From Thermoanaerobaculia bacterium (GTDB taxonomy: Bacteria > Acidobacteriota > Thermoanaerobaculia > Gp7-AA8), in contig JBIOTX010000233.1 of assembly GCA_044866315.1 (NCBI GenBank), positions 3,444 through 67,443 on the forward strand: a stretch of DNA of 64,000 bases, written 5' to 3'. Of this stretch, positions 23,779 to 47,315 are shown piece after piece. The stretch's first letter is position 1, and each line of letters opens with the position of its first letter. The position numbers and the translations under genes are program-made. The notes below the pieces were generated by a model, which was given only the letters and a program-made list of their open reading frames with translations, was not told where the DNA came from and did no database searches.

Positions 23779-23860
23779 CCCCGCTGCGGGTAGGGAAAGC
23801 CCCTACTGACGGCCCTCCTTCCTTGGGTCCGAAAAAAATCCGAGAGAAAGTGAGTGTCAC

Positions 23861-25768
23861 ATGAAAGGTGTCTTCTTTGGTCTAGGTCTGCAGTACGACG
23901 ACGGCGACAGTCCGGCGATCGCCCTCAACCGCAACGGCCGCGTGCTCGAGGTCCACAAGAACGAGCTGGGGCTGACGCTCTATTACCGCACCGGCACGAC
24001 CAGCCAGATGAATGTGCGCTGGGACGCGAAGGCGAAGGAGTACACCGGCGGGGTGGAGCCGTCGGTGGCCCTCAACGCCTCGAACCGCCTGGTGGAGGTG
24101 CACAAGAACGAGGCGGGCGTGACGCTCTACTGCCGGCAAGGCAGGCTCGATGGCGAGACCATCCACTGGGACGGCGACAAGTGGGACGACTATACCTCCG
24201 GCCTCTCCCCCTCGGTCGCGCTCAACGACGCCGGCAAGGTCGTCGAAGTGCACCGCTCCGAGAAGACCACCCGCCTGTACTGGCGCGTCGGAAGGCTCGG
24301 CGTCCCGAACGTCGACTGGCTCAACGACGACAACTACGACAACGGCGACACGCCCCAGGTGGCGATCAACAACAACGACCACGTCGTGGAAGTGCACCGG
24401 TCGGAGCTCGGGGCGACGAATCTCTGGTACCACGTCGGGAAGATCACCTCGGACAACAAGATCGAGTTCGGCGAGAGCACGTTCTTCGCCAACGGCGCCG
24501 ACCCCTCGGTCGCTCTCACCGACGCCGGCGACGTCATCGTCTCCTGGAAGGAAGGCACGGAGCTGATGCAGCGGTTCGGCCAGATCAATACCTCCGACCA
24601 CAGCATCAACTGGATCGGCGACAAGCAGCCGTACGACAGCGGCAACACGCCGTCGGTCGCCGCGGCCGGCCGGATGGCCATCAACGCCCATGAAGGCTCG
24701 CTCGCGCAGACGCTCTGGTACTCGACCTCGCTCATCACCGACCGGGCCATCTGGATGACCGAGCGCCGCAGCCAGCTCGGCCCGCGCACGATCCCGCAGC
24801 TGGTCCTCCCCGCCTCGCACGACTCGGGGATGTACCTCGGCGACATCATCTCGTCGCTGGGAAAGACCCAGTCGCTGTCGATCTTCGAGCAGCTCGAGTA
24901 CGGCATCCGCTACTTCGACCTGCGCCCGGAGTGGACCAACGGCAAGTTCGTCATCCACCACGGCGTCATCAACGGACCCGACCTCTCCGTCGTGCTCGAC
25001 GACATCCGCCGCTACTGCCAGTTCGGCCACAAAGAGCTGATCATCATCGACTGGAGCCACTTCAAGAACTTCGACGCCGACGTCTACAAGACGTTCACGG
25101 ACCAGCTGAACGCCAAGATCGGGACGTGGCAGTTCAAAGGCCCCCTGCAGCCGGGACAGCGGCTGGCCGACATCCCGCTCTCGCAGTTCACGCCCAGCGG
25201 CCCGTGCATCCTCTCCGCGATCGACGAGGACTGGGCCATCGATGATCCGAAGCCGGGATTCTGGGTCTTCCGCAACTCGGCGGCCGCCGACTCCGACGAA
25301 GGCCAGCTGGTCGTCTTCGACCAGTACTCCGACACGGCCTTCTACGACACGATGCGCGACGATCAGCTCGAGAAGTACAAGAACTACGACGGCAAGCAGC
25401 AGAACTTCCCCAACCTGCCGTGCGACATGTTCCTCCTCTCCTGGACGCTGACCTCACCGGTCGGCGCAGGCGTCTGGCCGCTCTCGACGGAAGCGAACCG
25501 CCACCTCGGCTACGTCATCGACGACCCGGCGGTCCACATCCCGAACAGCCACGGCAAGATCATGAACGCGCTCTACGTCGACTACGTCGAGTTCGCGCGC
25601 GTCACCGACGTCGGGATCCTCCAGAACGAAGTACAGAGCGCGACGGTGACGGCCGGGGCGACGGACGCGAAGCTGAGCATCCGCGCCGAGTCCGGGCGCG
25701 ACACCGGGTTCGAGATCGTCACGCCGCCGGCGGCGAAGGAGCCGCCGAAGGAGATCACGGGGACGTAG
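23861..25768 (+). CDS. six-repeat (beta-propeller-like) domain fused to a PI-PLC X-domain phosphodiesterase
   Basis: 635 aa. It has six repeats of about 47 aa with the consensus G..PSVALN..G.VVEVH....LYYR.G. PLC X-domain motifs follow (LVLPASHDSG, GIRYFDLRPEW, VIHHGV). I see no signal peptide. Confidence 0.75.
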   Translation: MKGVFFGLGLQYDDGDSPAIALNRNGRVLEVHKNELGLTLYYRTGTTSQMNVRWDAKAKEYTGGVEPSVALNASNRLVEVHKNEAGVTLYCRQGRLDGETIHWDGDKWDDYTSGLSPSVALNDAGKVVEVHRSEKTTRLYWRVGRLGVPNVDWLNDDNYDNGDTPQVAINNNDHVVEVHRSELGATNLWYHVGKITSDNKIEFGESTFFANGADPSVALTDAGDVIVSWKEGTELMQRFGQINTSDHSINWIGDKQPYDSGNTPSVAAAGRMAINAHEGSLAQTLWYSTSLITDRAIWMTERRSQLGPRTIPQLVLPASHDSGMYLGDIISSLGKTQSLSIFEQLEYGIRYFDLRPEWTNGKFVIHHGVINGPDLSVVLDDIRRYCQFGHKELIIIDWSHFKNFDADVYKTFTDQLNAKIGTWQFKGPLQPGQRLADIPLSQFTPSGPCILSAIDEDWAIDDPKPGFWVFRNSAAADSDEGQLVVFDQYSDTAFYDTMRDDQLEKYKNYDGKQQNFPNLPCDMFLLSWTLTSPVGAGVWPLSTEANRHLGYVIDDPAVHIPNSHGKIMNALYVDYVEFARVTDVGILQNEVQSATVTAGATDAKLSIRAESGRDTGFEIVTPPAAKEPPKEITGT

Positions 25769-31087: not shown

Positions 31088-31254
31088 GGAAATCCGATGC
31101 GCTTCCTTGACTGCCCCCCGTCGCCGCAAATTTTTTTGCGTGGGAGCGGCCCGCCCCTGAAATTTCTCTCGTTTCCCGACATGAAAGGGTGACCCGCGAA
31201 GGCGACGCCACGGCGCTCTGAGTCCCCATCACAACAAAAAGGAGAAGAACCATC

Positions 31255-32715
31255 ATGCGCAAACAACTGCTCCACGTGTGCGCGCTCGCGCTCGCACTCG
31301 TCGCCCTTCCGCTCTTTGGACAAGACCCGGCCGCCGCCCCGCCGAGCGAGGCGCTGCTCGAGGACGCCGCCGAATATGCCTCCCGGGTGGGCGTCAGCAT
31401 CGACGAGGCCGTGCGCCGCCTGCGCCTGCAGACGCAGATCGGCGATCTCGAAGCCGTTCTTCTGAATGAGGAGCCAGCGACGTACGCCGGGCTATGGATC
31501 GAAGACACACCTCACTATCGCGTGATCGCCCGCTTCACCGATCCGGCGGCCGCGGGGCGTCTGCGCGCCCGGGTTGCCGGAGGGGCGCTGGAGGAACTGA
31601 TCGAAACGCGCTCCGCGCGGTGGTCGCTGGCCGAGCTCGAAAAGCGGCAGGCCGAAAGCCGCGGAATCGCCCGCGGGGTGAAGATTCCGACGAACTCCAA
31701 GGTGAACGTCGCCGAGAACCGCGTGGAGCTGCATGTGCTCGACCCGGCGAAGTTCGGCAACGCCGTGGCCGCGGCCAAGGCGCGCATTCCGGAGGGAGTG
31801 GCCATCCAGCGAGTCTCCCGGCTGGCCGGGTCCGAGGCCCTGGTCGGCGGGACCTCTCTGACGACGTGCACCGCCGGGTTCACCGTGCAGGCCACGACCG
31901 GCGAGCTCGGAGTGTCGACCGCCGGTCACTGCCAGAACAACCAGTCCTTCCAGGTCCTCCCCCTCCAGTTCCTCTCCCTCCCCTTCCGTCGCGAGAAGGA
32001 CAGCGGGGAGTTCGACATCCAGTGGCACTCGGCCTGCGATCTGGTGCAGGTCACGAATCAGTTCCAGACCGGCCTCGGTCTCCGCTCCGTCGTCGGCACG
32101 CGCCACCGGAACAATCAGGCCGTCGGCACGTTCGTCTGCAAGTTCGGCGGCGTGACCGGCCGGACCTGCGGCTGGATCGACAGCACGAGCTACGATCCCA
32201 ATTTCTTCTCCAATCTCTTCGGTGGAAAGTACATCTACGTCGACGGCCGCGGCGCGGACCTGTCGTCGAACGGTGACAGCGGCGGCCCCTGGTACGTCGA
32301 GGACATCGCCTACGGCATCCACTCCGGCCACGGAGGCAACGACAAGAACGCGTACTACATGGCCATCAACTACATCTCCGCCGTGGGCGTGAGCGTGCTG
32401 ACGTCCAATCCCGGAGCGTGCAATTTCATCCCGATCGCAAACTTCGGCGCCCACGCCAGACTGGACGGCTTCGCCACCTTCAACGGCTCGACCAGCTCCG
32501 ACCCGGACGGTTTCATCGTCCGCTGGGAGTGGAACTTCGACGATGGCACGACGGCCGTCTCCACCACGCCGTCCATCACCCACGCCTATCCCCCGAACAG
32601 CGGGTCCTACATCGTCACCCTCACCGTGACCGACAACGAAGGCAAGCGAGGCTCGACGTCCAAGGAGGTTTGCGTTCCGACGATCGCGTGCAATGTCGTC
32701 GGGCCCACGCCGTGA
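31255..32715 (+). CDS. secreted S1-family (alpha-lytic/streptogrisin-like) serine protease with C-terminal PKD domain
   Basis: It has a signal peptide and a long pro-region. Catalytic motifs are STAGHC and GDSGGPWY. The C-terminal PKD-like segment is SSDPDGFIVRWEWNFDDGT...Y.VTLTVTDNEG. Confidence 0.85.
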   Translation: MRKQLLHVCALALALVALPLFGQDPAAAPPSEALLEDAAEYASRVGVSIDEAVRRLRLQTQIGDLEAVLLNEEPATYAGLWIEDTPHYRVIARFTDPAAAGRLRARVAGGALEELIETRSARWSLAELEKRQAESRGIARGVKIPTNSKVNVAENRVELHVLDPAKFGNAVAAAKARIPEGVAIQRVSRLAGSEALVGGTSLTTCTAGFTVQATTGELGVSTAGHCQNNQSFQVLPLQFLSLPFRREKDSGEFDIQWHSACDLVQVTNQFQTGLGLRSVVGTRHRNNQAVGTFVCKFGGVTGRTCGWIDSTSYDPNFFSNLFGGKYIYVDGRGADLSSNGDSGGPWYVEDIAYGIHSGHGGNDKNAYYMAINYISAVGVSVLTSNPGACNFIPIANFGAHARLDGFATFNGSTSSDPDGFIVRWEWNFDDGTTAVSTTPSITHAYPPNSGSYIVTLTVTDNEGKRGSTSKEVCVPTIACNVVGPTP

Positions 32716-32725
32716 GAGCATGACG

Positions 32726-32755
32726 CCAAGGGCGAGGCCGTGGCCTCGCCCTTGG
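32726..32755. terminator. stem-loop between convergent genes
   Basis: CCAAGGGCGAGGC-CGTG-GCCTCGCCCTTGG forms a perfect 13-bp stem. Confidence 0.7.
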
Positions 32756-32822
32756 CTCGCATGGTTCGTGGGAGGTGGAGGCTCACATCCGCGGCGAACA
32801 GTGATGATTCAATCCGGAGACC

Positions 32823-33227
32823 CTAGGCCTTCTTGTTCTTCTCGTCCCAGAGCATCGGCTCCCACAGCTCGACCTTGTTGCCATCGGGATCCATGATCCA
32901 CGCGAACTTGCCGTTCTCGTCGGAATCGGGCCCCTTGACGATCTCGACGCCGTTCCTCTGGAGCTGCGCGAGCAGCGCGGTCAGGTCGTCGACGCGGTAA
33001 TTGATCATGAAGCTGGACGTGCTCGGGCTGAACCACTTCGACTCGGGCTCGGCGACGTGCCAGACGGTGAGGCCGCCGTCCTCCGCCTGATCCTCCGGCC
33101 ACTTCAGGATCGCGCCGCCCCAATCTTCGAGTGCCAAGCCCAGATTGTCCCTGTACCAGGCAGCGAGGCGCTTGTGGTCCGACGTCGACTTGAAAAAAAC
33201 ACCGCCGATCCCTGTCACACGGGCCAT
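32823..33227 (-). CDS. VOC/glyoxalase-family protein
   Basis: 134 aa. GIGGVFFKS...YRVDDL...G.F.WIMDPDGNKVELWEP is typical of the VOC fold. Confidence 0.8.
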   Translation of the reverse strand: MARVTGIGGVFFKSTSDHKRLAAWYRDNLGLALEDWGGAILKWPEDQAEDGGLTVWHVAEPESKWFSPSTSSFMINYRVDDLTALLAQLQRNGVEIVKGPDSDENGKFAWIMDPDGNKVELWEPMLWDEKNKKA

Positions 33228-33251
33228 CCACTGCCTCCCTCATTCGCAACT

Positions 33252-33272
33252 TGGCGTCCCCAACGGGATTCG
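33252..33272 (-). repeat. exact 21-nt copy of the 3' end of tRNA-Glu (att-like direct repeat)
   Basis: TGGCGTCCCCAACGGGATTCG at 33252-33272 is identical to 37729-37749, which is the CCA end, acceptor stem and part of the T arm of the tRNA-Glu gene. The orientation is the same. An AT-rich patch follows immediately. Confidence 0.9.
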
Positions 33273-33417
33273 TATTCGTTCAACTCTCGATGACTCAGTA
33301 ACTTACAGAAAACACTATATTCTAAAAATGCTCCAACCGCCGAAATTGTCTGTCGGAGGTACATATCAGGTACAGGCGCTCGTCTGTGCGCGCCTCTGAG
33401 CTACCGCCAGGCGCGCC

Positions 33418-35180
33418 CTAACAAGGACCACCCGGGCAGTTCCAAAAGACCCGCAGCCGACCGTCGAAGCCGAAGGGGACATCGTCGGTGCGCATCTTCA
33501 TCTGACCAAACTTGTTGATGCTTGGTGTTCCCCTCGTCGCGGTGACCCGTACCCGGACAAACCAGGGTGAGGGGCGAAATGTGACTTGAACTGCTTCGCC
33601 GGTCTGATCGCCGGGCAGGCTGGCACCCAGTGTCGCCTGCGGTGAAGGACGAGGCGGCGGGTGAATGTCGAATTCCACCGCATCCGCAGGTGTGTCGCCG
33701 CCGGGGAAAAAGCGGAGACCGGTGTTCCCACCTCCGATCCCAGCAGCGATTCACGGCCGGTGTTTCTCGCATGGGCTTTCCAGCGGTCTTTGCGAGTGGG
33801 CGATTCATCGTCGACTGCGGGCACGGTCCGAAATTCAAAACCGAGATTCATCCGCCTTCCGTGGACAATGGTCGGATTGTGGGGCCGGAGCACGTCGCTG
33901 AAGAGCGTTCCGTCACCCGCCTGCCGCTCCACGTACAGCCGCGGGGGATCGCCACGGATCTCGAGCGTGGATGCGAGAGCGACACCGTTTCGGCGGAATC
34001 GCTGCCGATTCACCCAGAGATCGGCTTCCGTTGCGGGACGGCTATTGTGGGTCGCCGTTCGCACGGCGACATACACGGCCGTTTTCCAATTGCGGTCGGC
34101 TGCCAGCGCACGTGCGCGAATCCGTTCCACCTCATCGGGCGGCAATTCAGTCGCGCGACTTGCGACGAGAGCACTGGCGCGACGTGCGGCGCCCGCTGCG
34201 CGCCCCACCTCGCCAAGCGCGCTTTGCGCGCGCGCCACGCCGTCCCAGGCGAGAGCCTCTCCCGCAACGTTTCCTCGCGATGATGCTACGGCGAGTTGGA
34301 ACGTATCGCGGGCGCCTGCGCTGTCGAAGCGCGCAAGCCGCTCGGCGCCTTCACGGAACTGTCGGCGTGTCTCGGCATTGACCGACAGCATCTCGTGATA
34401 GACGGTGAGCTCGCTGCTGGGACGATTGGAGACGACCTCGCCCCACCGCCTGCTCACCTGCTGGATCGCGACGAGCAACAGCGCCACGGCCACCATCGCA
34501 GCGACGCGACGGTGACGGCGCAGGAACTTCCGGTGCGGTAGATTCGGTCGCCGCGCCGCGCTGCCACAGGCTCGCCGGCCAGAACGCGACGCAGATCGTC
34601 GGCCAGCGCCGCCGCTGACGCGTAGCGGGCCTCCGGTTTCCTGACATAGATGACGGCATCGAGCACCGACAGGAACAGCTCGAGCCGCGCACGAAGCGGT
34701 AACTGGCGCGAGCGGCAGTACTCGAGGATCGACTCTCCCTCGACGAGCTCCATGGCGCTGCTCTTCGCGTACGTGACGCAGCGAAGTAGCGTCGACGAAG
34801 CGATCGACAACTTTGAGCGCCACCACTCGTTTGAAGTCGGCGCGCTCCTGGTCGGCGAGATAGACGGTCGCGCTGCCGCCGCGGCCGATGCGCCAGGCAA
34901 GGCGGAAGCTCGGAATGTCGGGGACCGGAAGGTCGGGGACCGGAAGGTTGTCCGGATCGGGAAGCCACAGCGTGCCGTTATCGAGCGGGCTATCCGACCG
35001 CGCCGAATGCTCGAGCAGCGCGCGCAACTCCTCGGCAAGCTCGGGAGCATCAGCGGTGGAACGGGCGATCTCGGCCTCGCGCTCCCCGGCAGGCATTTCG
35101 GAGAGCCGATCGAAGAGCTCGCGCAAACGCTGGAAGGCCGGCTGCGGAGCGTCGGGTTGCGCCGTAGGAGGCTCGTTCAC
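33418..35180 (-). pseudogene. decayed Ser/Thr kinase gene (frameshifts plus internal deletions)
   Basis: One frame carries IGRGGSATVY and VALKVV. Another frame carries MELVEGESILEYC...LELFLSVLDAV, joined directly to KPEARYASAAALADDLRRVLAGEPV. There is no HRD, DFG or APE region. A TM segment and the extracytoplasmic part follow, and the 3' end reads best in a third frame (33418-33678). Confidence 0.6.
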
Positions 35181-35281
35181 CGCATGATCAGACGCTCTAG
35201 CGAAGAAATGGCCGCGATCGTGCCACGGCGCGGCGCCCGGACCGCGGCGCCGCTTGAATCCGCAGCTCGTGAATCTCGCAA

Positions 35282-37600
35282 TCACGCGCGCCGACGGGCG
35301 AACCAGGCCACGGCCAGCAGGATCATCAACGTCAGCGCGCTGATCGCACGGCCGGCGAGGAACGACCGCGGCCGGTAAACGAGGAGAACCTGATGACGTC
35401 CGGCCGGGACGCGCACTGCGAGAAACGCTGCATTGGCGCGCTCGAGCGGAACGCGCGTTCCGTCGACGAATGCCTGCCAGCCGCGCCACGCGCAATCGCT
35501 GATGACGATGTGGCCCGGGCGTTCCATGTCGGCTTCGAGCTCGTACAGGCCTCCGCGGCTTCGCGAGCGAAGTGAGATTTTTCCGGGACCGTTTTCGTAT
35601 TCGCCGGTCTCACGCGACGTGATCCAGGCGATCTCCCGAAAGTCCCGCACGCGCGCCATGCGGTCGACGAGCTCCTCGATGGACGCGCCGGTCAGCACGA
35701 CGCGGCGCGGGATGAAGATCCGCTCGATGACCGCGCTGTTTTCGATCAATACCGAGCCGGGCTGCGAAGCCACTGGACGCCAGCCGTCCGGCAGCGGCAG
35801 GGCGCTGGGCTGAATCGCGAAACGGACATTCATCAGCGACAGGAACGGCGCGCTGAGATCGTCCACGCGGTTGAACCAGATCCCCTCCAGCCGGCACCAG
35901 AGCCTCCACGTGGCGACGAATTGCCAGAGCGTCAGCGCGTCGTAGCCGCGAGGATCCTCGAGACCGTAAAAAATGTTCGTCGCCGGCGGAAACGTCAGGC
36001 CGCGGCCGACGATCCGGAACGGCTGCCGAATCTTCGTCAGGGGCTCGAACAGAGCGATGGGCGGATATGCGGCCTGCCGTGGAACGGTTGCATAGGTATC
36101 GATCTCCGAGAGCGCACGCTGCGCGACCACGACCGCCAGAAGCGCCGGCGCCAGCGCGCGAGGTCTCGTCCAAAGCAATGCCGCGGCTGCCCCAAGGAAC
36201 AGCAGTTCCGCGAGCATCCGATAACGCCCGTGATCGGCCGGCGTCACGGCGAGAACGACGTTCCGTTGAATCCACCACGTACCGGCGGCGAGTAGCAGCA
36301 ACACGAGCGCGCAGGTCATCGCCGCGCCGCGCCAGTCTTCGCGCCGTATCAGGAAATCGACGCCCATCGCCGCGAGAATCGCCAGAGCGAGAGCTCCGTG
36401 AAACGCCAGACGGTCGTGAAAGGTGATCGACAGCAGCGGCAGTGCGTGCATTGCGTCCGCCAGCGGCGTCCAGCGCACGGCGGCGGCGAAACAGAACATC
36501 GCCAGCGCGGCAAAGAACCAGGTCTCAGCCGAGCGTATCCGCCAGATCGCATAGAGCGAGAGTGCGAGGATCACGCTGCCGGTCGTGCCGGACTCGCCGC
36601 CGACGTGACCGAGCAAGGGCGAGAGCCAGGCACGATTCTGGAGAAACGGGAAGAAGTTCGTCATCAGAAGCGCGAGCGCCTCCGGCGTCGCTGCGCCCCA
36701 TGACGATGCGATCGTTTTCACGCCGTACTCGTGAGACTGCGGAATGGCATCGAGCAGCGGCAAAAGAGCGATCGCGCAGAGCAGAAACGCCGCCAGGCCG
36801 GCCGCGAGCGCCGTCGCGATCGCGCGCCAGGGGCTCGCACGGCGGCGAACCAGCTCGAACAGACCATACGCGCAACCGACCAGCACGTTGAGCAGGAGCG
36901 ACTCCGGATGCCCGGCGAGCGCCGACAACGCGAGCGCCGTCATCAACAGTGCACCCGCGTGCAATGCCGGTTGCCAGACCACGCGCCGTGCCGCCGCAAG
37001 CAGAAGCGGTGCGTACAGGGTCGCGAAGCCGAGGGCGTTGAGCGAGGAAACGACCATGCAGGACGAGAGCGCCCATCCCGCTGCGGCAACGCATGCCGCG
37101 GCCTCGCCGAGACCCAGCTCGCGCGCGAGCACGAAGGCGGAGACGGCGGCGAGGAAAAGCGCGATCGCCGCCGTGTAGGTCATGCTCACCGTCGCCGGAA
37201 GCAGGCAAGCGATCAGCGTGAACGGCGAGTAGGGCGCCGACTGGGCCTCGGCCGCGAGAGGATGACCGGCCAGGTTGTACGCATTCCAGAGCGGCCACTC
37301 CCGACGCGCGAGCGACTCCTTCACCGCCAGGCGCCACGGGAAAAACTCCGACCATATGTCCGCGACCGTCACATTTTTCGCGGCCCCGGTGCCGAACCGT
37401 TGCGCGAGAGCCACATGAGGCTCGTACTGATAGACGTGATCGACAGGCCCGTAGACCCCGCCTGTGACGAGCGCGTACCCGGTGACTGCCAGCGGCAGCG
37501 CCAGCAGCAGCAGTCCCGCGGCACGCGACATCGGCACGACGTGCGAATGGACGAGCCAGAGCACCGCCAGCGCCGTAGCGAAATAGAGCAGCAATGACAT
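35282..37600 (-). CDS. YfhO-like polytopic membrane protein (putative glycosyltransferase-fold)
   Basis: 772 aa with many TM segments. The N-terminal pattern WSEFFPWR...WPLWNAYNLAGHPL..E.QSAPYSP and the large C-terminal soluble domain match YfhO-family proteins as I recall them. Confidence 0.65.
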   Translation of the reverse strand: MSLLLYFATALAVLWLVHSHVVPMSRAAGLLLLALPLAVTGYALVTGGVYGPVDHVYQYEPHVALAQRFGTGAAKNVTVADIWSEFFPWRLAVKESLARREWPLWNAYNLAGHPLAAEAQSAPYSPFTLIACLLPATVSMTYTAAIALFLAAVSAFVLARELGLGEAAACVAAAGWALSSCMVVSSLNALGFATLYAPLLLAAARRVVWQPALHAGALLMTALALSALAGHPESLLLNVLVGCAYGLFELVRRRASPWRAIATALAAGLAAFLLCAIALLPLLDAIPQSHEYGVKTIASSWGAATPEALALLMTNFFPFLQNRAWLSPLLGHVGGESGTTGSVILALSLYAIWRIRSAETWFFAALAMFCFAAAVRWTPLADAMHALPLLSITFHDRLAFHGALALAILAAMGVDFLIRREDWRGAAMTCALVLLLLAAGTWWIQRNVVLAVTPADHGRYRMLAELLFLGAAAALLWTRPRALAPALLAVVVAQRALSEIDTYATVPRQAAYPPIALFEPLTKIRQPFRIVGRGLTFPPATNIFYGLEDPRGYDALTLWQFVATWRLWCRLEGIWFNRVDDLSAPFLSLMNVRFAIQPSALPLPDGWRPVASQPGSVLIENSAVIERIFIPRRVVLTGASIEELVDRMARVRDFREIAWITSRETGEYENGPGKISLRSRSRGGLYELEADMERPGHIVISDCAWRGWQAFVDGTRVPLERANAAFLAVRVPAGRHQVLLVYRPRSFLAGRAISALTLMILLAVAWFARRRA

Positions 37601-37728
37601 GGGGAGCTAAAGCGCGTTGAGTGTGCGTTGCGCTGAGCAGTACCGTCAAGCGGGAAGCGTCGGCTCAAGACATCGAGCGATCGAGTGACGCGATCGTTGG
37701 CAAGTCCGGACAACGATGTGGAACGAGG

Positions 37729-37804
37729 TGGCGTCCCCAACGGGATTCGAACCCGTGTTGTCGCCGTGAAAGGGCGATGTCCTAGGCCTCTAGACGATGG
37801 GGAC
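37729..37804 (-). tRNA. tRNA-Glu (anticodon UUC), CCA encoded
   Basis: The reverse complement reads GTCCCCATCGTCTAGAGGCCTAGGACATCGCCCTTTCACGGCGACAACACGGGTTCGAATCCCGTTGGGGACGCCA. The cloverleaf and the CTTTCAC anticodon loop are evident. Confidence 0.95.
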
Positions 37805-37818
37805 TTCTCGGCTTTGCC

Positions 37819-37921
37819 GGAATTGAAAATTGAAAATGAGAAATTGAAAATCGGGGCAAGGGCAACGGCACCGCGAGAGCGCCGCCCCTTTTCCATTTTC
37901 AATTTCCCAATTTTCAATTCC
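37819..37921. repeat. AT-rich imperfect inverted repeat built from TTGAAAAT units
   Basis: The left arm is GGAATTGAAAATTGAAAATGAGAAATTGAAAATCGGGG. The right arm, reverse-complemented, is GGAATTGAAAATTGGGAAATTGAAAATGGAAAAGGGG. It lies between the two tRNA genes. Confidence 0.8.
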
Positions 37922-37939
37922 GCGCGCCCGAGGCGCGCG
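37921..37939 (-). terminator. perfect 8-bp GC hairpin just downstream of tRNA-Lys
   Basis: CGCGCGCC-CGA-GGCGCGCG, 4 nt beyond the tRNA-Lys 3' end. Confidence 0.55.
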
Positions 37940-37943
37940 GCAC

Positions 37944-38018
37944 TGGTGAGCCCGGTAGGGATCGAACCTACGACCAACTGGTTAAAAGCCAGCTGCTCTA
38001 CCGCTGAGCTACGGGCCC
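37944..38018 (-). tRNA. tRNA-Lys (anticodon UUU), CCA encoded
   Basis: The reverse complement reads GGGCCCGTAGCTCAGCGGTAGAGCAGCTGGCTTTTAACCAGTTGGTCGTAGGTTCGATCCCTACCGGGCTCACCA. Confidence 0.95.
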
Positions 38019-39676: not shown

Positions 39677-41196
39677 TCCGCGACGTCGTCACGCACGTGG
39701 TCGTCTCCACGACGGTGCTGGCCATCGCGCTCGCTGCCGCGAGCTGGATCCGACCTCTGACCGCGCGCACGCGCCACGCGATTCTGATCGCCGGCATGGC
39801 CGCGCTGCTCTTCCCGTCGGCGCTGATCGCACTCCTCGTCGAGCGGCTGGGCAGCGACCAGATCCAGACCATTCGCGCGACGCTGCCGGTCTTCCTCGAT
39901 CCACCGAGTCCGGCAAAGCTGCCGGCCCCGGCGCCGTTTCCGTGGATGGAGACCCTCGCCGTAGTCTGGCTCGGCGTGGCCATCCTTCTCTTCGTGCGCT
40001 GGTGGATCGTGACCCACCGCCTGGTGGCCACCGCCCTCCGCGCCGCCACCCCGCCCCCCGCCCGCGCCGTCGCGGCGCTCGAGGCCGCGCGCCAGCGCCT
40101 CGGCGTCCGGCACGCGGTCGATCTCATCGCTTCCCCGACGTGCGAGGCTCCCGCAGTGGTGCGCGTGCTTCGCCCGATGATCATTCTCCCCGCGGACGGC
40201 TGCGATGCCCTCGGCGACGAGGAGCTGGAGTCGCTGCTCTGCCACGAATGTGCACACGTGGCCCGGCGCGACAACCTCCTCGGCGTCTTCGAGGCCGTCG
40301 CATGCTCGCTGTTCTGGTTCAACCCCCTGGTCTGGCTGGCCCACCGCCGGATCGCCGCCGCACGCGAAGAAGCGTGCGACGAGCGCGTGGCCGACGCCGC
40401 GCTGCCCGCCGAAACGTACGTCGGCGCGCTCGCGAAGATCTGCCGCACGCTCCTCGCGCCCCGCGTGGCCGCGGTGTCCTGCATGGCCAGCGCTCATCTG
40501 AAAGAAAGGATTCAACACCTCATGCGTTACGACACGCTTCGAACATCCGCTCTCTCCCACCGGTTCATCTCCGCGGCCGCGACCACCCTGGTGGCCGTGT
40601 TCGTCATCGCCGCCGGCGTGGTCACCGCCGATCCGGTCAAGATCAAGCGCGGCAGCGACGAGCGCTACCTGCTCAACTACTCCGTCGCCAAGACGAAGGA
40701 CGGCGCCCTGGCCTTCCGCGCCGAGATCGTCGACTCCAAGACCAAGGAAGTCATCGGCCAGCCGACGATGATGACCCGCGATACCACGCCCGCCTCGGCC
40801 GAGATCACGCGCGACGAGCGCAAGTGGCGCGTCGAGGTCACGCCCCAGGCCGACGGCGGCGGCATCATCAACCTCACCGTCTGGGACGGCTCGTCGACCG
40901 CCCAGCGCTCCTCGTACACCTTCGGCGCGCTCGACGTGGTCGAGAACCGCAAGAAGTACAGCGGCGATCCGATCAGCCTCAATCTGCACAACGCCGACAT
41001 CCGCGACGTCATCCGGGTCTTCGGCCAGCTGACCGGCCTGGACATCGCCGTCGAGCCGGAAGTGCAGGGAAGGATCACCGTCCACTTCCAGGACACCCCC
41101 TGGGACGAAGCCTTCGATCAGGTCCTGCACGAGAACGGGTTCGACTACCGCCAGGACGGCGAGGGCAAGCTGACGGTCTTCGCGCGAGCGCGTTAA
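39673..41196 (+). CDS. BlaR1-like M56 peptidase sensor with C-terminal secretin/TonB-N-terminus-like domain
   Basis: GTGA overlap with the BlaI gene. The N-terminus is TM-rich and carries an HExxH (LCHECAHVARRD). The C-terminus reads ISLNLHNADIRDVIRVFGQLTGLDIAVEPEVQGRITVHFQDTPWDEAFDQVL. Confidence 0.85.
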   Translation: MIRDVVTHVVVSTTVLAIALAAASWIRPLTARTRHAILIAGMAALLFPSALIALLVERLGSDQIQTIRATLPVFLDPPSPAKLPAPAPFPWMETLAVVWLGVAILLFVRWWIVTHRLVATALRAATPPPARAVAALEAARQRLGVRHAVDLIASPTCEAPAVVRVLRPMIILPADGCDALGDEELESLLCHECAHVARRDNLLGVFEAVACSLFWFNPLVWLAHRRIAAAREEACDERVADAALPAETYVGALAKICRTLLAPRVAAVSCMASAHLKERIQHLMRYDTLRTSALSHRFISAAATTLVAVFVIAAGVVTADPVKIKRGSDERYLLNYSVAKTKDGALAFRAEIVDSKTKEVIGQPTMMTRDTTPASAEITRDERKWRVEVTPQADGGGIINLTVWDGSSTAQRSSYTFGALDVVENRKKYSGDPISLNLHNADIRDVIRVFGQLTGLDIAVEPEVQGRITVHFQDTPWDEAFDQVLHENGFDYRQDGEGKLTVFARAR

Positions 41197-41207
41197 GCCG
41201 TTACGAT

Positions 41208-41310
41208 GTGTGTCATCCCGAGCGGGAGCGAGGGACCTGGGCGGGTGGGAGGCACGAGACGCCCGCCACCGCCCGCCCAGGTCCCTCGACGAACGCTCGG
41301 GATGACACAC
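41208..41310. repeat. near-perfect palindrome of about 103 bp filling the intergenic space
   Basis: GTGTGTCATCCCGAGCG...CGAGGGACCTGGGCGG...CCGCCCAGGTCCCTCG...CGCTCGGGATGACACAC. It begins 12 nt after the BlaR1-like stop and ends 1 nt before the next ATG. Confidence 0.85.
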
Positions 41311-41311
41311 G

Positions 41312-42520
41312 ATGAATGACGCCGCAGCCGCATACGTGAAGCTCGTCCTGTCCATGGGCGAGCATGACCCCGACTACGTCGACGCCTATTACGGTCCACC
41401 GGAGTGGCGCGAGGAGATTCGCGCCACTCCCCCTTCCCTATCCGCGATCCACGACGACGCGCTGCGCCTGCGCGATCGGCTGGACGCGATCGCGCGGCCG
41501 TCCGATCCGATCGAGTCGCTCCGCCTCGACTACCTCCGCCGCCAGACCGCCGCGCTCATCGCCCGCTGCGAGATGCTGCAGGGAAGGCGCTTCCGCTTCG
41601 ACGAGGAGTCGAAGGCGCTCTACGACGCCGTCGCGCCGACGTATTCCGAGGGGTACTTCCGGGAGCTGAATGCGGCGATCGAGAACGAGCTGCCGGGCAG
41701 CGGACGCCTCGTCGACCGGGTGGAGGCGTTCCGGATGGAGTTCGTCATCCCGCGCGAGAAGCTCGATGCCGTCTTCGGCAAGGCCATCGACGTCTGCCGG
41801 GCCAGGACCATGGAGCAGATGGCCCTGCCGGTCGGGGAGTCGTTCACGGTCGAGTACGTGAACAACAAGTCGTGGAGCGGCTACAACTGGTACCAGGGCG
41901 GCTTCAAGAGCCTGATCCAGGTCAACACCGACCTGCCGATCTTCATCGACCGGGCCATCGACCTGGCCTGCCACGAGGGCTATCCCGGGCATCACGTCTA
42001 CAACTCGCTGCTGGAGAAGTCGCTGGTGCGCGACCGCGGCTGGGTCGAATTCTCCGTCTACGCGCTCTTCTCCGCGCAGTCGCTGATCGCCGAGGGGAGC
42101 GCGAACTACGGCATCGACGTGGCGTTCCCGGCGCGCGAGCGGGTGGAGATGGAGGAAGCCGCGCTCTTCCCGCTGGCCGGCCTCGACTCCACGCGCGCCG
42201 CGCAGTACTACCGCGTCTACGAACTCGTCTCCCGCACCAGCTACGCCGGCAACGAAGCCGCGCGGCGCTACCTCGACGGAGAGTTTGATGTGGACCAGGC
42301 CGTGGAGTGGCTGGCGGCGTACGCGCTCATGGCCCCCGAGCGCGCGCGCCAGCGCGTGCGCTTCTTCGACCAGTACCGCAGCTACGTCATCAACTACAAC
42401 TTCGGCAAGGACCTGGTGAAGGAGTACGTGGAGCGGCGTGCGGGAGGGGACGCGCAGAAGCGATGGGACGTGTTCGCGGAACTGCTGTCGTCGCCGCGGC
42501 TGCCGTCAGGACTGACGTGA
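41312..42520 (+). CDS. DUF885-like protein (HEGYPGHH motif)
   Basis: 402 aa. CHEGYPGHHVYN resembles the HE..PGHH signature of DUF885. The protein is shorter than typical members. The start is uncertain because the upstream palindrome leaves no room for an RBS. Confidence 0.6.
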   Translation: MNDAAAAYVKLVLSMGEHDPDYVDAYYGPPEWREEIRATPPSLSAIHDDALRLRDRLDAIARPSDPIESLRLDYLRRQTAALIARCEMLQGRRFRFDEESKALYDAVAPTYSEGYFRELNAAIENELPGSGRLVDRVEAFRMEFVIPREKLDAVFGKAIDVCRARTMEQMALPVGESFTVEYVNNKSWSGYNWYQGGFKSLIQVNTDLPIFIDRAIDLACHEGYPGHHVYNSLLEKSLVRDRGWVEFSVYALFSAQSLIAEGSANYGIDVAFPARERVEMEEAALFPLAGLDSTRAAQYYRVYELVSRTSYAGNEAARRYLDGEFDVDQAVEWLAAYALMAPERARQRVRFFDQYRSYVINYNFGKDLVKEYVERRAGGDAQKRWDVFAELLSSPRLPSGLT

Positions 42521-44043: not shown

Positions 44044-45879
44044 ATGCCGGCCACCTACGGCAACTCGTACGATGTAGTTCTACTCGGTTCGGGCATCGGT
44101 GGGTCGATGCTGGCGTGCATTCTGGCGAAGCACGGCCTGTCCACGCTGCTCATCGAGGAGCTCTCGCATCCCAGGTTCGCCATCGGCGAGTCGCTCATCC
44201 CGGAGACCGGCGTGCGCCTGCGCATCCTCGCGGAGAAGCACGGCGTGCCGGAGATCGGCTGGGTCGGCAGCTTCCACGCTCTGCGCGACAACGTCAGCGC
44301 CGCGTGCGGCGTGAAGCGCTCCTTCTCGTTCATGTACCACCGGGCCGGCGAGCGCCATCGCGCCGAGGAGACCAACCAGCTCCCGACGCTCACGCCGCCG
44401 TTCGGACCGGACTCGCATCTCTTCCGCCAGGACGTCGACGGCTACCTGGCCTCGATGGCGGTGAAGTACGGTGCGCACTTCCGCCAGCAGGTGAAGATCG
44501 CGAAGATCGAGTTCCAGCCGGACCAGGTGCGGCTCACCACCGACAAGGGCGAGGAGATCCGCGCCGCGTTCCTCATCGACGCCGGCGGCATGCGCTCGCA
44601 CATGGCCACGCAGTTCAACCTGCGCGATCCGGAGCCGCGCTTCAAGACCAACACCCGCGCGCTCTACACGCACATGATGGACGTGAGGCCGGCCGACCTC
44701 CTGGTCGAGGGCAATCACGGCCTCCCCTCCCCCCTCGGCCAGGCCACCATGCATCACATCTTCGACGGCGGCTGGATCTGGATCATCCCCTTCAACAACC
44801 ACCGCGAGTCGACGAACCCGCTGACCAGCGTCGGGATGATGCTCGACCGCCGCAAGTACCCGACGCCCGAGGGCTCGCCGGAAGAGGAGTTCCGCCGCAT
44901 CATCAGCCGCTTCCCGACCATCCGGAAGCACTTCGCCGACGCCCGCCCGGTGCGGCCGTGGGTCGGCAGCGGGCGCATTCAGTACTCGCAGGCGCACTGC
45001 ATCGGCCCGCGCTGGATCCAGCTCCCGCACGCGGCGAACTTCGTCGACCCGCTCTTCTCCAGCGGCCTCTCCGTGCTCACCGTGGCCGTCGACCTGATGG
45101 CCGACGCGCTGCTGCGCGCCTTCGCCGACAACGACTTCGCCGTGGAGCGCTTCCAGCGCGTCGAGGACGTGGTCAACACCGGCTTCGACCACTACGACCT
45201 CATCGTCCACAAGTCCTTCGACTCCTTCGCCAGCTACGACCTCTGGAACGCCTGGAACCGCAACTGGGTAATGGGCAACTTCCTGGGCACGTTCGGCGCG
45301 TTCAAGATGCTCCTCGAGTACCTGCGCACCGGCGAACCGCGGTTCCTGGAGAAAACCACCGAGCCGGGACGCATCGGTGTGCTCAGCAGCCACCTGCCCG
45401 AGGTGCGCGCGGCCATGGATGCCTCGGCGAGCGACATCGAAGAGGCCCTGGCGGGGCGGATGATGCATTCCGAGGCCAGCGCGCGGATCTTCGCCCGCCT
45501 CGGCGGTCTGAAGTTCCTGCCGAAGTACATGGGCTTCGGCGATCCGTCCCATCGCGCGCCGTCGACGTTCACGCTGCAGACCGGCGCGCGCCACGTGCTC
45601 TGGTATCGCTATCAGGGCGACAAGAAGTGGCGCGACTACGCGAGCTTCAGCCTCCTCACCTACGCCCGGCAGGTCCTCGGGTTCATGGCCCGTGAGACGG
45701 GCGACTCCGCGCGCCGCTTCCGCACCGCCGTGCGCGACGTCTTCTTCGCCGGGAACGAGGACTGGCACTACACGCCGAACGCGCTGCGCGCGCACGGCCG
45801 GTATCACCTGCCCTTCGAGGCGGACAGCGCGGCGGACGAGGCGATCGAAGCTCCGGCCATCCAGCACGCAACAAAATGA
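44044..45879 (+). CDS. flavin-dependent halogenase
   Basis: GGAGG lies 6 nt upstream of the ATG at 44044. It has GxGxxG (LLGSGIGGS), the halogenase-specific WxWxIP (GGWIWIIPF), and the Fx.Px.Sx.G motif (FVDPLFSSGLS). Confidence 0.8.
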   Translation: MPATYGNSYDVVLLGSGIGGSMLACILAKHGLSTLLIEELSHPRFAIGESLIPETGVRLRILAEKHGVPEIGWVGSFHALRDNVSAACGVKRSFSFMYHRAGERHRAEETNQLPTLTPPFGPDSHLFRQDVDGYLASMAVKYGAHFRQQVKIAKIEFQPDQVRLTTDKGEEIRAAFLIDAGGMRSHMATQFNLRDPEPRFKTNTRALYTHMMDVRPADLLVEGNHGLPSPLGQATMHHIFDGGWIWIIPFNNHRESTNPLTSVGMMLDRRKYPTPEGSPEEEFRRIISRFPTIRKHFADARPVRPWVGSGRIQYSQAHCIGPRWIQLPHAANFVDPLFSSGLSVLTVAVDLMADALLRAFADNDFAVERFQRVEDVVNTGFDHYDLIVHKSFDSFASYDLWNAWNRNWVMGNFLGTFGAFKMLLEYLRTGEPRFLEKTTEPGRIGVLSSHLPEVRAAMDASASDIEEALAGRMMHSEASARIFARLGGLKFLPKYMGFGDPSHRAPSTFTLQTGARHVLWYRYQGDKKWRDYASFSLLTYARQVLGFMARETGDSARRFRTAVRDVFFAGNEDWHYTPNALRAHGRYHLPFEADSAADEAIEAPAIQHATK

Positions 45880-47315
45880 CTGGAAAACCGCAACTTCGTT
45901 GGCGCGGGATCTTTCGAGACCTGCCGCGCGAGCACGGCTATGAGCCGCTGCGCGTCGAGGGAACGCTTCCCGGCGACCTCGAGGGCGTGCTCTATCGCTG
46001 CGGTCCGGCGCGCTTTTCCATCGGCGGCGAGCCGTACCTGCACTGGTTCGACGCCGACGGCGCGGTGAGCGCCGTGCGCGTCGGGCGCGGGGCCGCCGTG
46101 GGCGCGGTGCGCACGGTGGAGACGCGCTGGCTGCGCAAGGAGCGCGCGGCCAACCGCCAGCTCTATCGCAGCTACGCCCAGCTCGGCCGCGGCTGGCGGC
46201 GCTGGCTCACGCTGCCGAAGAACCCCGCGAATATCTCCGTGCTGCCGTACGAGGGACAGGCGCTCGCGCTCTGGGAAGCGGGCCTGCCGATCGCGCTCGA
46301 TCCGGCGACGCTGGACACGCGCGGCGAGACCGACCTGGACGGGCGCATTGGGCCGACGTTCTCCGCACATCCACATTCCGCGGCCGGCCGGCTGTTCAAC
46401 TTCGGCGTCCGCTACGGACGGCGCTTCTCGCTCGATCTGTACGCCTTGGGTGGGATGCCGCGCCGCATCGCTTCGGTGCCGCTGCCGCGCCCGACGATCA
46501 TCCACGACTTCATCGTCACCTCGCGCCACGCGATCTTCTTCTGCGCGCCGATCCGCCTCCGCCTCGGCCGCCTGCTCGCCGGCATGCACAGCTTCAACGA
46601 CAACCTGGCCTGGGAGCCGGAGCACGGCACGGAAGTCGTGGTCGTGCCGCTGGCGACGCCGGACAAGCCCGTGCGCTTCCCCGTGCACCCGTTCTTCCAG
46701 TGGCACTTCGTGAACGCGTGGGAGCAGGGCGGCGCGCTCCTCGTCGATCACATCCCCTACGACGACTTCGAGACCAACGCCTGGTTCGGCCGCGCGCCGT
46801 ACGCGCCGCCCACCGCCCCGCCCCCGTCGCGCTACGCGCGCACGCGCATCGAGCTGTCCTCGAAGCGCATGGTCACCGAGGTGCTCTCGGACATGACCTC
46901 GTGCGAGTTCCCGGCCATCCATCCGAACGACGCGGGGCTCCCCCACCGCAACGTCTGGCTGCTCTGCGACGGGCTGCCGTCGACGCTGCGCTGCTTCGAT
47001 CCGAAGACGCGCACCGTGCGCACGGTGCCCCTCGGCGCCGAGACCGTCCCGAGCGAGCCGACCGTCGTGCCGCGCGCGGGCCATCCCGACGGCTGGGTGC
47101 TCAGCCTGGTCTACGACGGCACGCGGGACGCGAGCTACGTCGCGGTCATCGACGGCGCGCGCCCCGAGGACGGGCCCGTGGCCCGGCTCTGGTTCGACCA
47201 CGCTATTCCCTTTCCCTTTCACGGCGCGTGGGCCTGCCCTGAGCGAAGCCGAAGGGACGCCGTGAATGAAACGTTTGTCGATCGATCCGCACTATCCGGA
47301 GGTAATCAGTCATGA
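45876..47315 (+). CDS. carotenoid-cleavage oxygenase family (RPE65/NOV-like) dioxygenase
   Basis: ATGA overlap with the halogenase gene. Four His-containing motifs are spaced as in CCOs (FSAHPH, IIHDFIVT, FFQWHFVNAW, FPFHGAW). A tail of about 30 aa follows the last motif. Confidence 0.85.
   Translation: MTGKPQLRWRGIFRDLPREHGYEPLRVEGTLPGDLEGVLYRCGPARFSIGGEPYLHWFDADGAVSAVRVGRGAAVGAVRTVETRWLRKERAANRQLYRSYAQLGRGWRRWLTLPKNPANISVLPYEGQALALWEAGLPIALDPATLDTRGETDLDGRIGPTFSAHPHSAAGRLFNFGVRYGRRFSLDLYALGGMPRRIASVPLPRPTIIHDFIVTSRHAIFFCAPIRLRLGRLLAGMHSFNDNLAWEPEHGTEVVVVPLATPDKPVRFPVHPFFQWHFVNAWEQGGALLVDHIPYDDFETNAWFGRAPYAPPTAPPPSRYARTRIELSSKRMVTEVLSDMTSCEFPAIHPNDAGLPHRNVWLLCDGLPSTLRCFDPKTRTVRTVPLGAETVPSEPTVVPRAGHPDGWVLSLVYDGTRDASYVAVIDGARPEDGPVARLWFDHAIPFPFHGAWACPERSRRDAVNETFVDRSALSGGNQS

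What the first reader, a model, noticed from the sequence alone, without database searches (positions are those of the whole stretch)
33252..37804. Exact 21-nt copy of the tRNA-Glu 3' end lies 4.5 kb from the tRNA: footprint of an integrated element
TGGCGTCCCCAACGGGATTCG occurs at 33252-33272 and again at 37729-37749, where it is the CCA end, acceptor stem and part of the T arm of tRNA-Glu(UUC). The orientation is the same. A chance match of this length in 64 kb is essentially impossible.

This is the classic attL/attR arrangement left by integrase-mediated insertion into a tRNA 3' end. The distal copy is followed by the most AT-rich patch in the window (about 33273-33420).

The enclosed 4.5 kb holds only a decayed kinase gene and a YfhO-like membrane protein. 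It has no integrase, so it would be a degraded island remnant.
Basis: partly seen in the sequence, partly recalled or inferred. Interest (0 to 1): 0.6.

Follow-up and report, generated by a model that had tools for sequence, protein, structure and literature searches.

The report
Eroded mobile-element scar at tRNA-Glu
The 21-base repeat is a genuine attachment-site scar: it marks the far end of a 4.5 kb remnant of a mobile element that once inserted into the tRNA-Glu gene of this soil acidobacterium and has since lost its integrase, which is a well-known kind of event.

Summary
TGGCGTCCCCAACGGGATTCG occurs exactly twice in the window, at 33252-33272 and at 37729-37749. The second copy is positions 56-76 (T-loop to CCA) of the genome's only tRNA-Glu(UUC).

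- The roughly 100 nt on the island side of the distal copy, the most AT-rich patch of the window, is a conserved element arm.
- Homologous arms abut the same 21-mer in 4 other Thermoanaerobaculia genomes and 12 further metagenome contigs. Cargo and outer flanks differ in every case.
- In one of these genomes a tyrosine integrase sits 62 nt after tRNA-Glu.
- Two relatives carry integrase pseudogenes just after a tRNA-Glu gene.
- This genome also holds a complete 63.7 kb sister element at tRNA-Gly. It has an integrase, a coupling protein, the same arm layout, and an exact 21-nt repeat of the same tRNA positions.
- In the two closest relatives, synteny holds up to tRNA-Lys/tRNA-Glu and breaks exactly at the CCA end.

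The 4.5 kb unit has no integrase and no tRNA-side arm. It holds an intact YfhO-family gene and a kinase pseudogene, and its composition is host-like. No empty site was found.

This is an ordinary phenomenon, cleanly documented in a little-studied lineage.

The parts
37729..37804 (-). tRNA-Glu(UUC), the only copy in the genome and the integration target. Its last 21 nt (37729-37749) are the attL core.
   Evidence: ARAGORN; Rfam tRNA at 61 bits; exact repeat.
37601..37728 (-). Spacer between the tRNA 3' end and the YfhO start. This is where the element's tRNA-side (P') arm and integrase would be expected. Neither is present.
   Evidence: No similarity to the P' arms of G041, G023, G012, G002 or C44. 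No arm-site motif elsewhere in the genome. tblastn with the G041 integrase found nothing significant in the island.
35282..37600 (-). Intact YfhO-family membrane protein of 772 aa, one of about 13 paralogs in the genome. It is the retained gene of the unit.
   Evidence: Pfam PF09586 at 3.9e-18. The best match in the two closest relatives is only 48-49% identical and lies elsewhere; the best match in the genus is 59%. Against a 99% identical strain it shows 7 nt changes and 1 aa change.
34074..35183 (-). Ser/Thr kinase pseudogene. Pieces match aa 55-190, 213-249, 350-395 and 397-546 of a 1046-aa paralog (C13:20351-23488), in frames 3, 1, 1 and 3. The catalytic segment (about aa 250-349: HRD, DFG, APE) is deleted and the C-terminal 500 aa are missing.
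   Evidence: blastx against the genome's own ORFs. The same decay is seen in three other assemblies, one of which has two extra 1-nt indels.
33375..34073 (.). About 0.7 kb with no recognisable gene.
   Evidence: No Pfam hit at E<=1 and no PHROG hit at E<=0.01 for any ORF. No Rfam family. No similarity to other members of the family.
33273..33374 (-). Element-side (P) arm of attR, about 102 nt and AT-rich. It carries a direct pair of TGTACC hexamers at -102 and -91 from the core (33369-33374 and 33358-33363 on the + strand) and a TGTAAGTTACTGAG box (33294-33307).
   Evidence: 77% identity over 124 nt to G001 (E=6e-21) and 69% to G012. Shuffle z-scores are 26 and 5.4. 17 arms were aligned. The hexamer pair sits at the same offsets in the tRNA-Gly element of contig C44.
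33252..33272 (-). attR core: the displaced copy of tRNA-Glu positions 56-76.
   Evidence: Exact match. The same 21-nt block follows homologous arms at 16 other loci.
32823..33227 (-). VOC/glyoxalase-family gene whose ATG lies 24 nt beyond the core. It is the outer flank (B' side) of the unit.
   Evidence: Pfam PF00903 at 1e-09. In G017 the ortholog (88% identity) also lies just beyond a displaced tRNA-Glu fragment.
37944..38018 (-). tRNA-Lys(UUU), which with tRNA-Glu is the last gene of the conserved backbone.
   Evidence: ARAGORN. Window 38.4-59.7 kb is syntenic with G023 and G017 up to this tRNA pair.

Best explanation
Window 33252-37749 is the eroded remainder of a site-specific integrative element, from a family related to ICE-like elements of soil Thermoanaerobaculia. 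A tyrosine integrase inserted the element into the 3' end of tRNA-Glu(UUC).

How it arose. Recombination took place within the 21 bp shared by the element's attP and the tRNA, positions C56 to A76. The element supplied a new copy of those 21 nt, so the tRNA stayed intact; this is attL. The original 21 nt were pushed to the far end, where they now sit next to the element's own P arm; this is attR (33252-33374). That arm carries a direct pair of hexamers that I infer to be arm-type integrase binding sites.

What happened since. The tRNA-proximal part of the element (P' arm, integrase, transfer genes) has been deleted or replaced. What remains is an intact YfhO-family gene, a decaying kinase pseudogene, about 0.7 kb of unassignable DNA, and attR. 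The genome has no cognate integrase, so the unit is now a fixed, immobile part of the chromosome.

Shown and inferred.
- Shown: the repeat, the conserved arm, integrase-bearing relatives, the synteny break and the loss of the integrase.
- Inferred: the recombination event itself, the role of the hexamers, and that YfhO and the kinase were cargo.
For: - The 21-mer is exact, in direct orientation, and ends at the CCA.
- The adjoining roughly 100 nt are homologous to sequence adjoining the same 21-mer in G001 (77%, E=6e-21) and G012.
- The same holds in two more GTDB Thermoanaerobaculia genomes and 12 further distinct metagenome contigs. Interiors and outer flanks differ everywhere.
- In G001 the 21-mer is followed by the terminator-like flank (GGCGGCACGGCCGCC...) that directly follows tRNA-Glu in G009, G006 and G008. 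This is the expected B' side.
- In G041 a 386-aa tyrosine integrase (PF00589 4e-15; phrog_1 3e-38) starts 62 nt after tRNA-Glu. On another contig a relaxase-like protein, a coupling protein and a HerA-like ATPase precede the arm plus 21-mer.
- Integrase pseudogenes lie right after tRNA-Glu in G023 and after the second tRNA-Glu copy in G002. An integrase start follows the distal fragment in G012.
- Same-genome comparator on contig C44: tRNA-Gly(GCC), P' arm, integrase (56% identical to G041's), coupling protein, Ser/Thr kinase cargo, P arm, then an exact 21-nt copy of tRNA-Gly positions 56-76, 63.6 kb away. Its hexamer pair sits at -102 and -91, as in the tRNA-Glu arm.
- Synteny with G023 and G017 runs from window 59.7 kb to 38.4 kb. 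It reaches tRNA-Lys/tRNA-Glu and stops at the CCA end.
- This YfhO copy has no ortholog in those relatives.
Against: - The 4.5 kb holds no integrase, no excisionase and no recognisable remnant of either.
- The tRNA-side arm is missing.
- GC content (0.656 against 0.674) and tetranucleotide usage (86th percentile) are host-like.
- No empty site was found. All same-species contigs are occupied, and a search for the exact tRNA-VOC junction in metagenome contigs found nothing.
- The outer flank (VOC and further left) is not syntenic with relatives either, so the true outer limit of foreign DNA is uncertain.
- The two ends of the integrase-bearing tRNA-Glu element in G041 lie on different contigs, so their linkage is inferred.
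- Part of the arm (the GTAASTTACWGA box) was used as the search pattern, so its conservation is partly by construction.
Confidence: 0.87

Rival explanations
1. The unit is not a dead relic but a cis-mobilizable element (CIME). It lacks its own integrase yet keeps a functional attR. It would move when a related element integrates into the tRNA in tandem, because the composite can then excise using the newcomer's tRNA-side arm and this unit's P arm.
For: Three integrase-less mini-units share the same plan: tRNA-Glu, one large host-like gene, then P arm plus 21-mer. They are G000 (4.5 kb, YfhO), G012 (2.4 kb, GH16) and L090 (3.6 kb, FG-GAP/RHS). In G012 a second element with an integrase start follows directly in tandem. 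The arm hexamers in G000 match the family consensus exactly. A strain whose neighbouring protease gene is 10.7% diverged carries an identical VOC-attR-island block. The CIME concept and accretion are described in PMC5704250.
Against: No cognate integrase exists in this genome. No excised or empty form was seen. Arm conservation could simply reflect recent decay. The mosaic contig could be an assembly chimera.
Confidence: 0.12
2. The 4.5 kb unit is only the tRNA-proximal member of a much larger accretion zone. VOC and much of the window to the left of it would also be older islands. The original displaced tRNA-Glu ends would be the fragments on contig C98, so the 21-mer would be an internal boundary rather than the outer one.
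For: Window 13.3-33.2 kb has no syntenic counterpart in G023, G017 or G018 except the 0.4 kb VOC gene itself, whereas the right side is syntenic. C98 carries a 54-nt tRNA-Glu fragment followed by conserved backbone. It also carries a 29-nt diverged fragment with a flank like the native tRNA-Glu flank of G009, G010 and G008. The MNT/HepT cassette between those fragments sits directly at tRNA-Glu in G042, at 74% identity.
Against: C98 and C233 are not joined in the assembly. The left part of the window has normal composition and no mobility genes were identified there. In G017 the VOC gene also lies just outside a displaced fragment, which fits VOC being an old native neighbour.
Confidence: 0.35
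3. The 21-mer is the last surviving piece of a duplicated and decayed tRNA-Glu gene, or a chance or assembly duplication, with no site-specific recombination involved.
For: Only the short length of the repeat and the absence of an integrase.
Against: The repeat starts at exactly the same tRNA position (56) at 17 loci, and also in the tRNA-Gly element. It is always preceded by a homologous non-tRNA arm. It is found in three independent assemblies. A chance match is excluded.
Confidence: 0.02

Closest known systems
tDNA-integrated genomic islands as defined by the Islander approach (Hudson, Lau & Williams 2015, PMC4383910; Williams 2002, PMC100330, as cited there)
   Same: An intact tRNA gene is paired with a displaced 3' fragment in direct orientation that marks the island ends. 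The target is the 3' part of the tRNA, and the identity block starts in the T-arm region; the paper's Table 1 lists 1836 of 3919 islands in that attP class. Tandem arrays occur at one tDNA.
   Different: This unit has no integrase gene, so it would fail Islander's integrase filter. It is small (4.5 kb), has host-like composition and lacks the tRNA-side arm.
Cis-mobilizable elements (CIMEs) left by decay of ICEs/IMEs, described in streptococci (Guedon et al. 2017 review, PMC5704250; ICEberg 2.0, PMC6323972)
   Same: [quoted passage not shown] Related elements sit in tandem at the same tRNA in relatives.
   Different: Only attR keeps its arm and attL keeps only the core. Mobilisation is untested. 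The lineage is Acidobacteriota rather than Firmicutes.
The 63.7 kb element at tRNA-Gly(GCC) in the same genome (G000 contig C44:5804-69520)
   Same: It has a 21-nt core covering the same tRNA positions (56-76). Its P arm has a hexamer pair at -102 and -91 and an AACTTACTGAG box. Its integrase is 56% identical to the tRNA-Glu-adjacent integrase of G041. It carries a Ser/Thr kinase as cargo.
   Different: It is complete, with P' arm, integrase, coupling protein and serine recombinase. It has lower GC (0.55-0.62), targets a different tRNA, and has CGTGTG-type rather than TGTACC-type hexamers.

Membership tests
tRNA-integrated genomic island (tyrosine-integrase type) | Intact tRNA gene plus a displaced 3' fragment of it in direct orientation on the 3' side | tested here: met
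tRNA-integrated genomic island (tyrosine-integrase type) | Integrase gene inside the bounded segment | tested here: not met
   No PF00589 hit on the contig. tblastn with the family integrase gave no significant hit. No Pfam or PHROG hit in the unassigned part.
tRNA-integrated genomic island (tyrosine-integrase type) | Attachment-site arms homologous to those of integrase-bearing elements | tested here: met
   The P arm is shared with G041 (integrase next to tRNA-Glu) and has the same layout as the C44 element. The P' arm was not found.
tRNA-integrated genomic island (tyrosine-integrase type) | Segment absent from relatives, with synteny breaking at the tRNA 3' end | tested here: met
   G023 and G017 are syntenic up to tRNA-Glu and differ after the CCA. 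This YfhO copy has no ortholog in them. An empty site with the same outer flank was not found.
tRNA-integrated genomic island (tyrosine-integrase type) | Anomalous base composition (a common but not required feature) | tested here: not met
   GC is 0.656 against 0.674, and tetranucleotide distance is at the 86th percentile.
CIME (cis-mobilizable element) | [quoted passage not shown] | tested here: met
CIME (cis-mobilizable element) | Retains both attL and attR | tested here: inconclusive
   Both 21-nt cores and the P arm are intact. The P' arm next to the tRNA is absent.
CIME (cis-mobilizable element) | Excises or transfers together with a related element integrated in tandem | not testable with these tools
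   This needs an experiment or read-level data.
Functional ICE/IME | Integrase plus relaxase and/or coupling protein | tested here: not met
   None is present in 33273-37728. They are present in the sister elements of G041 and C44.
Prophage remnant | Phage structural or replication genes | tested here: not met
   No PHROG hits in the island. The arm pattern is absent from viral contigs.

The most novel reading that the evidence does not exclude
The integrase-less mini-units at tRNA-Glu, each with one large host-type gene between the tRNA and a conserved P arm plus 21-mer, may be a maintained class of hitch-hiking gene cassettes. They would be shuffled among soil Thermoanaerobaculia by accretion with the ICE family. 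Selection would then act on the P arm, so ordinary housekeeping-type paralogs (YfhO, GH16, FG-GAP proteins) would be exchanged through a tRNA 'dock' without carrying any mobility gene.
Probability: 0.12. Interest if true: 0.45.

Novelty: new member of a known kind. Interest (0 to 1): 0.25.

Why it matters
The result explains a local piece of genome history. The YfhO paralog and the dead kinase lie downstream of tRNA-Glu because a mobile element brought them, or made room for them.

It also defines, by sequence alone, the attachment sites of an unstudied family of integrative, probably conjugative or mobilizable, elements in Thermoanaerobaculia, a group of uncultured soil Acidobacteriota. The definition comprises a 21-bp core from tRNA position 56 to the CCA, arms of about 100 nt with paired hexamers, and an integrase next to the tRNA.

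These features can be used to delimit islands in such metagenome-assembled genomes. They also give candidate integrase/att pairs for genetic tools in a phylum that has few. Conceptually it adds nothing new to the biology of tRNA-targeted integration.

Tried and rejected
- Integrase or excisionase remnants in the island. tblastn with the G041 integrase gave a best E of 0.013, inside the kinase relic, which is not meaningful. Pfam at E<=1 and PHROGs on all ORFs of 33401-34398 found nothing.
- tblastx of the island against relatives' loci returned only high-GC noise.
- Composition tests (GC, tetranucleotides) did not discriminate.
- The empty-site test failed. The exact tRNA-Glu/VOC junction is not present in metagenome contigs, and same-species contigs are all occupied.
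- The arm pattern is absent from viral contigs.
- The promoter/terminator scan of 33100-33600 found no site.
- Rfam found only the two tRNAs.
- Assembly-graph linkage: the left end of C98 joins C358, but neither end of C233 overlaps another contig.
- Pseudo-tRNA and chance explanations were rejected, as set out under the rival explanations.


Full report
**1. Observation**

The 21-mer TGGCGTCCCCAACGGGATTCG occurs exactly twice in the window, at 33252-33272 and 37729-37749, on the same strand. There are no further copies at up to 3 mismatches, and none in 100 shuffles.

ARAGORN finds tRNA-Glu(UUC) at 37729-37804 and tRNA-Lys(UUU) at 37944-38018, both on the minus strand. The proximal copy is therefore tRNA positions 56-76, from T-loop C56 through the encoded CCA. 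The tRNA's 3' end points toward the distal copy, which is the geometry expected for insertion into a tRNA 3' end.

Window 33268-33347, directly inside the distal copy, is the most AT-rich 80 nt of the window, at GC 0.36.

The window is G000:C233:3444-67443 of a 7.0 Mb, 447-contig assembly. Same-genus genomes G001 and G012 correspond to records titled Thermoanaerobaculia bacterium, soil metagenome-assembled genomes.

**2. Content of the bounded 4.5 kb**

- 35282-37600(-) is an intact 772-aa YfhO-family membrane protein (PF09586). It is one of about 13 paralogs in the genome.
- 34074-35183(-) is a Ser/Thr kinase relic. Against the 1046-aa paralog at C13:20351-23488 it matches aa 55-190, 213-249, 350-395 and 397-546, in frames 3, 1, 1 and 3.
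- The relic lacks the catalytic segment (about aa 250-349) and the C-terminal 500 aa.
- The same decay is present in three independent assemblies. One of them has two extra 1-nt indels, as expected for a neutral pseudogene.
- 33375-34073 has no recognisable gene.
- No tyrosine recombinase lies on the whole contig.
- GC and tetranucleotide usage are host-like.

**3. The key evidence: a conserved element arm next to the distal copy**

In tRNA-sense orientation, the roughly 100 nt preceding the distal 21-mer are homologous to the sequence preceding an exact 21-nt tRNA-Glu fragment in G001. The match is 77% over 124 nt, E=6e-21, shuffle z=26.

They are also homologous to the sequence preceding a 24-nt fragment in G012, at 69% and z=5.4. 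In G012 that fragment lies 2.4 kb from the tRNA-Glu gene.

A pattern built from a short arm box plus the 21-mer then found more members:
- two more GTDB genomes, G041 and G042, both Thermoanaerobaculia;
- 13 metagenome contigs, one of which is identical to G041.

Aligning the 17 distinct arms gives this consensus: CCGTGTACCTGATATGTACCTCCGA..GACTTTTTGAGCGGTT..TTTTAG.GTATAGTGTTTTCTGTAACTTACTGAGCCGTCGAGGGT.G.ACGAATA, followed by the core.

The GTAACTTAC.GA box was part of the search pattern, so its conservation is partly by construction. The rest of the arm was not.

The DNA beyond the 21-mer differs at every locus, and so does the interior.

In G001 the 21-mer is followed by the terminator-like flank that directly follows tRNA-Glu in G009, G006 and G008. 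That is what a displaced native tRNA end should look like.

The arm occurs only once in this genome.

**4. Integrases**

- In G041 a 386-aa tyrosine integrase (PF00589 4e-15; phrog_1 3e-38) begins 62 nt after tRNA-Glu. A roughly 70-nt arm carrying CTGTGTGCGATACGTGTGGTTCG precedes it.
- On another G041 contig the P arm plus 21-mer is preceded by a Replic_Relax protein, a TrwB/TraG-type coupling protein and a HerA-like ATPase, in lower-GC DNA.
- tblastn with this integrase finds multi-frame pseudogene pieces directly after tRNA-Glu in G023, the closest relative by the VOC gene.
- It also finds pseudogene pieces after the second tRNA-Glu copy in G002, and the first 30 codons of an integrase just beyond the distal fragment in G012, which indicates a tandem second element.
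- It finds nothing meaningful in this island.

**5. A complete sister element in the same genome**

Contig C44 carries the following, in order:
- tRNA-Gly(GCC) at 5804-5879;
- an arm carrying CGCGTGTTTATTACGTGTGGTTCG;
- an integrase at 5972-7099, 56% identical to G041's;
- cargo that includes an intact Ser/Thr kinase and a TPR protein;
- a coupling protein and a serine recombinase;
- a P arm;
- at 69500-69520, an exact 21-nt copy of tRNA-Gly positions 56-76.

Its P arm has a hexamer pair (CGTGTG) at -102 and -91 from the core. The TGTACC pair of the tRNA-Glu arm sits at exactly those offsets. It also has an AACTTACTGAG box at the same place.

Within an element, the hexamer type is the same in both arms (G041, C44). 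This is why I infer that the hexamers are arm-type integrase binding sites. That remains an inference, not a demonstration.

**6. Relatives**

Window 38.4-59.7 kb is syntenic with G023 and G017. Blastn blocks cover 38.4-59.7 kb, and the tRNA-Lys/tRNA-Glu pair follows in the same order. After the CCA each genome has different DNA.
- G023 has an integrase pseudogene, then 5.5 kb at GC about 0.52 with DUF3419, MFS, PcrB and UbiA genes.
- G017 has an unrelated sequence that runs off its contig.

This YfhO copy has no ortholog in G023 or G017 (48-49% identity, elsewhere). Its best matches, at 59%, lie at other loci in more distant members of the genus.

Displaced tRNA-Glu 3' fragments of 21-63 nt occur in at least G001, G007, G012, G017, G041 and G042. 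Some of them have unrelated arms. tRNA-Glu is therefore a hot spot used by several element families.

**7.

The segment is indeed absent from relatives, but no genome shows tRNA-Glu abutting VOC.
- In G017 the VOC ortholog (88% identity) lies about 0.5 kb beyond a displaced 26-nt tRNA-Glu fragment, in the same orientation as here. That fits VOC being an old downstream neighbour.
- In G023 (88% nucleotide identity, 93% as protein) the VOC gene lies in an unrelated context.

Same-species contigs at 99.1%, 100% and 95.4% identity all carry the unit. The exact empty-site junction is not in the metagenome collection.

**8. The refutation clause about a dispersed tRNA-derived repeat family**

The genome has two more tRNA-Glu 3' fragments on contig C98, of 54 nt and of 29 nt (diverged). 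They flank an MNT/HepT toxin-antitoxin cassette.

In G042 that cassette sits directly between tRNA-Glu and a 49-nt fragment, at 74% identity.

These fragments have different lengths and different arms, so they are scars of other elements at the same target, not copies of a multiplying repeat.

Together with the lack of synteny to the left of VOC, they raise the possibility that the 4.5 kb unit is only the innermost member of a larger accretion zone. I put this at about 35%. The assembly cannot settle it.

**9. Mechanism and verdict**

The best-supported account has four steps:
- A tyrosine integrase inserted an ICE- or IME-like element into tRNA-Glu, with crossover somewhere within positions 56-76.
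- The tRNA was regenerated from element-borne sequence.
- The tRNA-side arm, the integrase and the transfer genes were later lost.
- attR, a YfhO-family gene (1 aa change in 7 nt changes against a sister strain) and a decaying kinase gene were retained.

Three integrase-less mini-units of the same plan exist: G000, G012 with a GH16 gene, and L090 with an FG-GAP/RHS protein. They resemble the cis-mobilizable elements described in streptococci (PMC5704250). Whether they still move by accretion is open.

The general principle, a regenerated tRNA and its displaced fragment marking the island ends, is textbook (PMC4383910). This is a correct reading of an ordinary phenomenon. It has modest added value as the first sequence-level definition of this element family's attachment sites in Thermoanaerobaculia.

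Noticed in passing
G000 contig C44:5804-69520 (loci L102-L105): A complete-looking 63.7 kb integrative element at tRNA-Gly(GCC). It has an integrase at 5972-7099, a coupling protein at 40551-41864, a serine recombinase at 44409-45995 and an intact Ser/Thr kinase at 22343-24397. An exact 21-nt copy of the tRNA-Gly 3' end lies at 69500-69520. GC is 0.55-0.62, against 0.67 for the genome.
   Followed up: partly
G000 contig C98:12511-13332 (locus L073); G042:C117:15271-17231 (L087): An MNT/HepT toxin-antitoxin cassette of about 0.65 kb is bounded by tRNA-Glu 3' fragments (54 nt and a diverged 29 nt). The same cassette, at 74% identity, sits directly between tRNA-Glu and a 49-nt fragment in G042, with a further 63-nt fragment 1.1 kb on. 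This is a tiny integrase-less island at the same hot spot.
   Followed up: partly
window 37805-37943; also G000 C202 after tRNA-His: The tRNA-Lys/tRNA-Glu spacer is 139 nt here, against 36 and 26 nt in G023 and G017. It consists of an inverted repeat of GAATTGAAAAT-like units. Similar units follow tRNA-His on C202, and other short tandem units follow tRNA-Leu, tRNA-Tyr and tRNA-Trp.
   Followed up: no
window 31215-34912 compared with locus L071: In a farmland metagenome contig the protease-PKD gene is 10.7% diverged up to about 32659. From 32660 to 34191 (VOC, attR core, P arm and beyond) the sequence is identical. This is either a recent recombination block that includes VOC and the island end, or an assembly chimera.
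   Followed up: partly
locus L068 (G023:C33) 10004-16500: Directly after tRNA-Glu, G023 has a multi-frame integrase pseudogene followed by 5.5 kb at GC about 0.52. That stretch encodes DUF3419, an MFS transporter, a PcrB-family (GGGP-synthase-like) protein and a UbiA prenyltransferase, a possible ether-lipid-type gene set on an island.
   Followed up: no
window 32823-33227; L023 (G023:C41), L024 (G017:C60), L025 (G018:C202): The 134-aa VOC/glyoxalase gene is conserved at 76-88% nucleotide identity in three sister species. In every one, only the gene itself matches the window; the DNA on both sides differs.
   Followed up: partly
locus L086:8622-9782 (G041) and G000 C44:5972-7099: The family integrases start MLT(L/I)F(K/R)R and carry a Cys/His-rich N-terminus (KSCPH...RRCSCP). 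This may be a zinc-binding arm-recognition domain.
   Followed up: no
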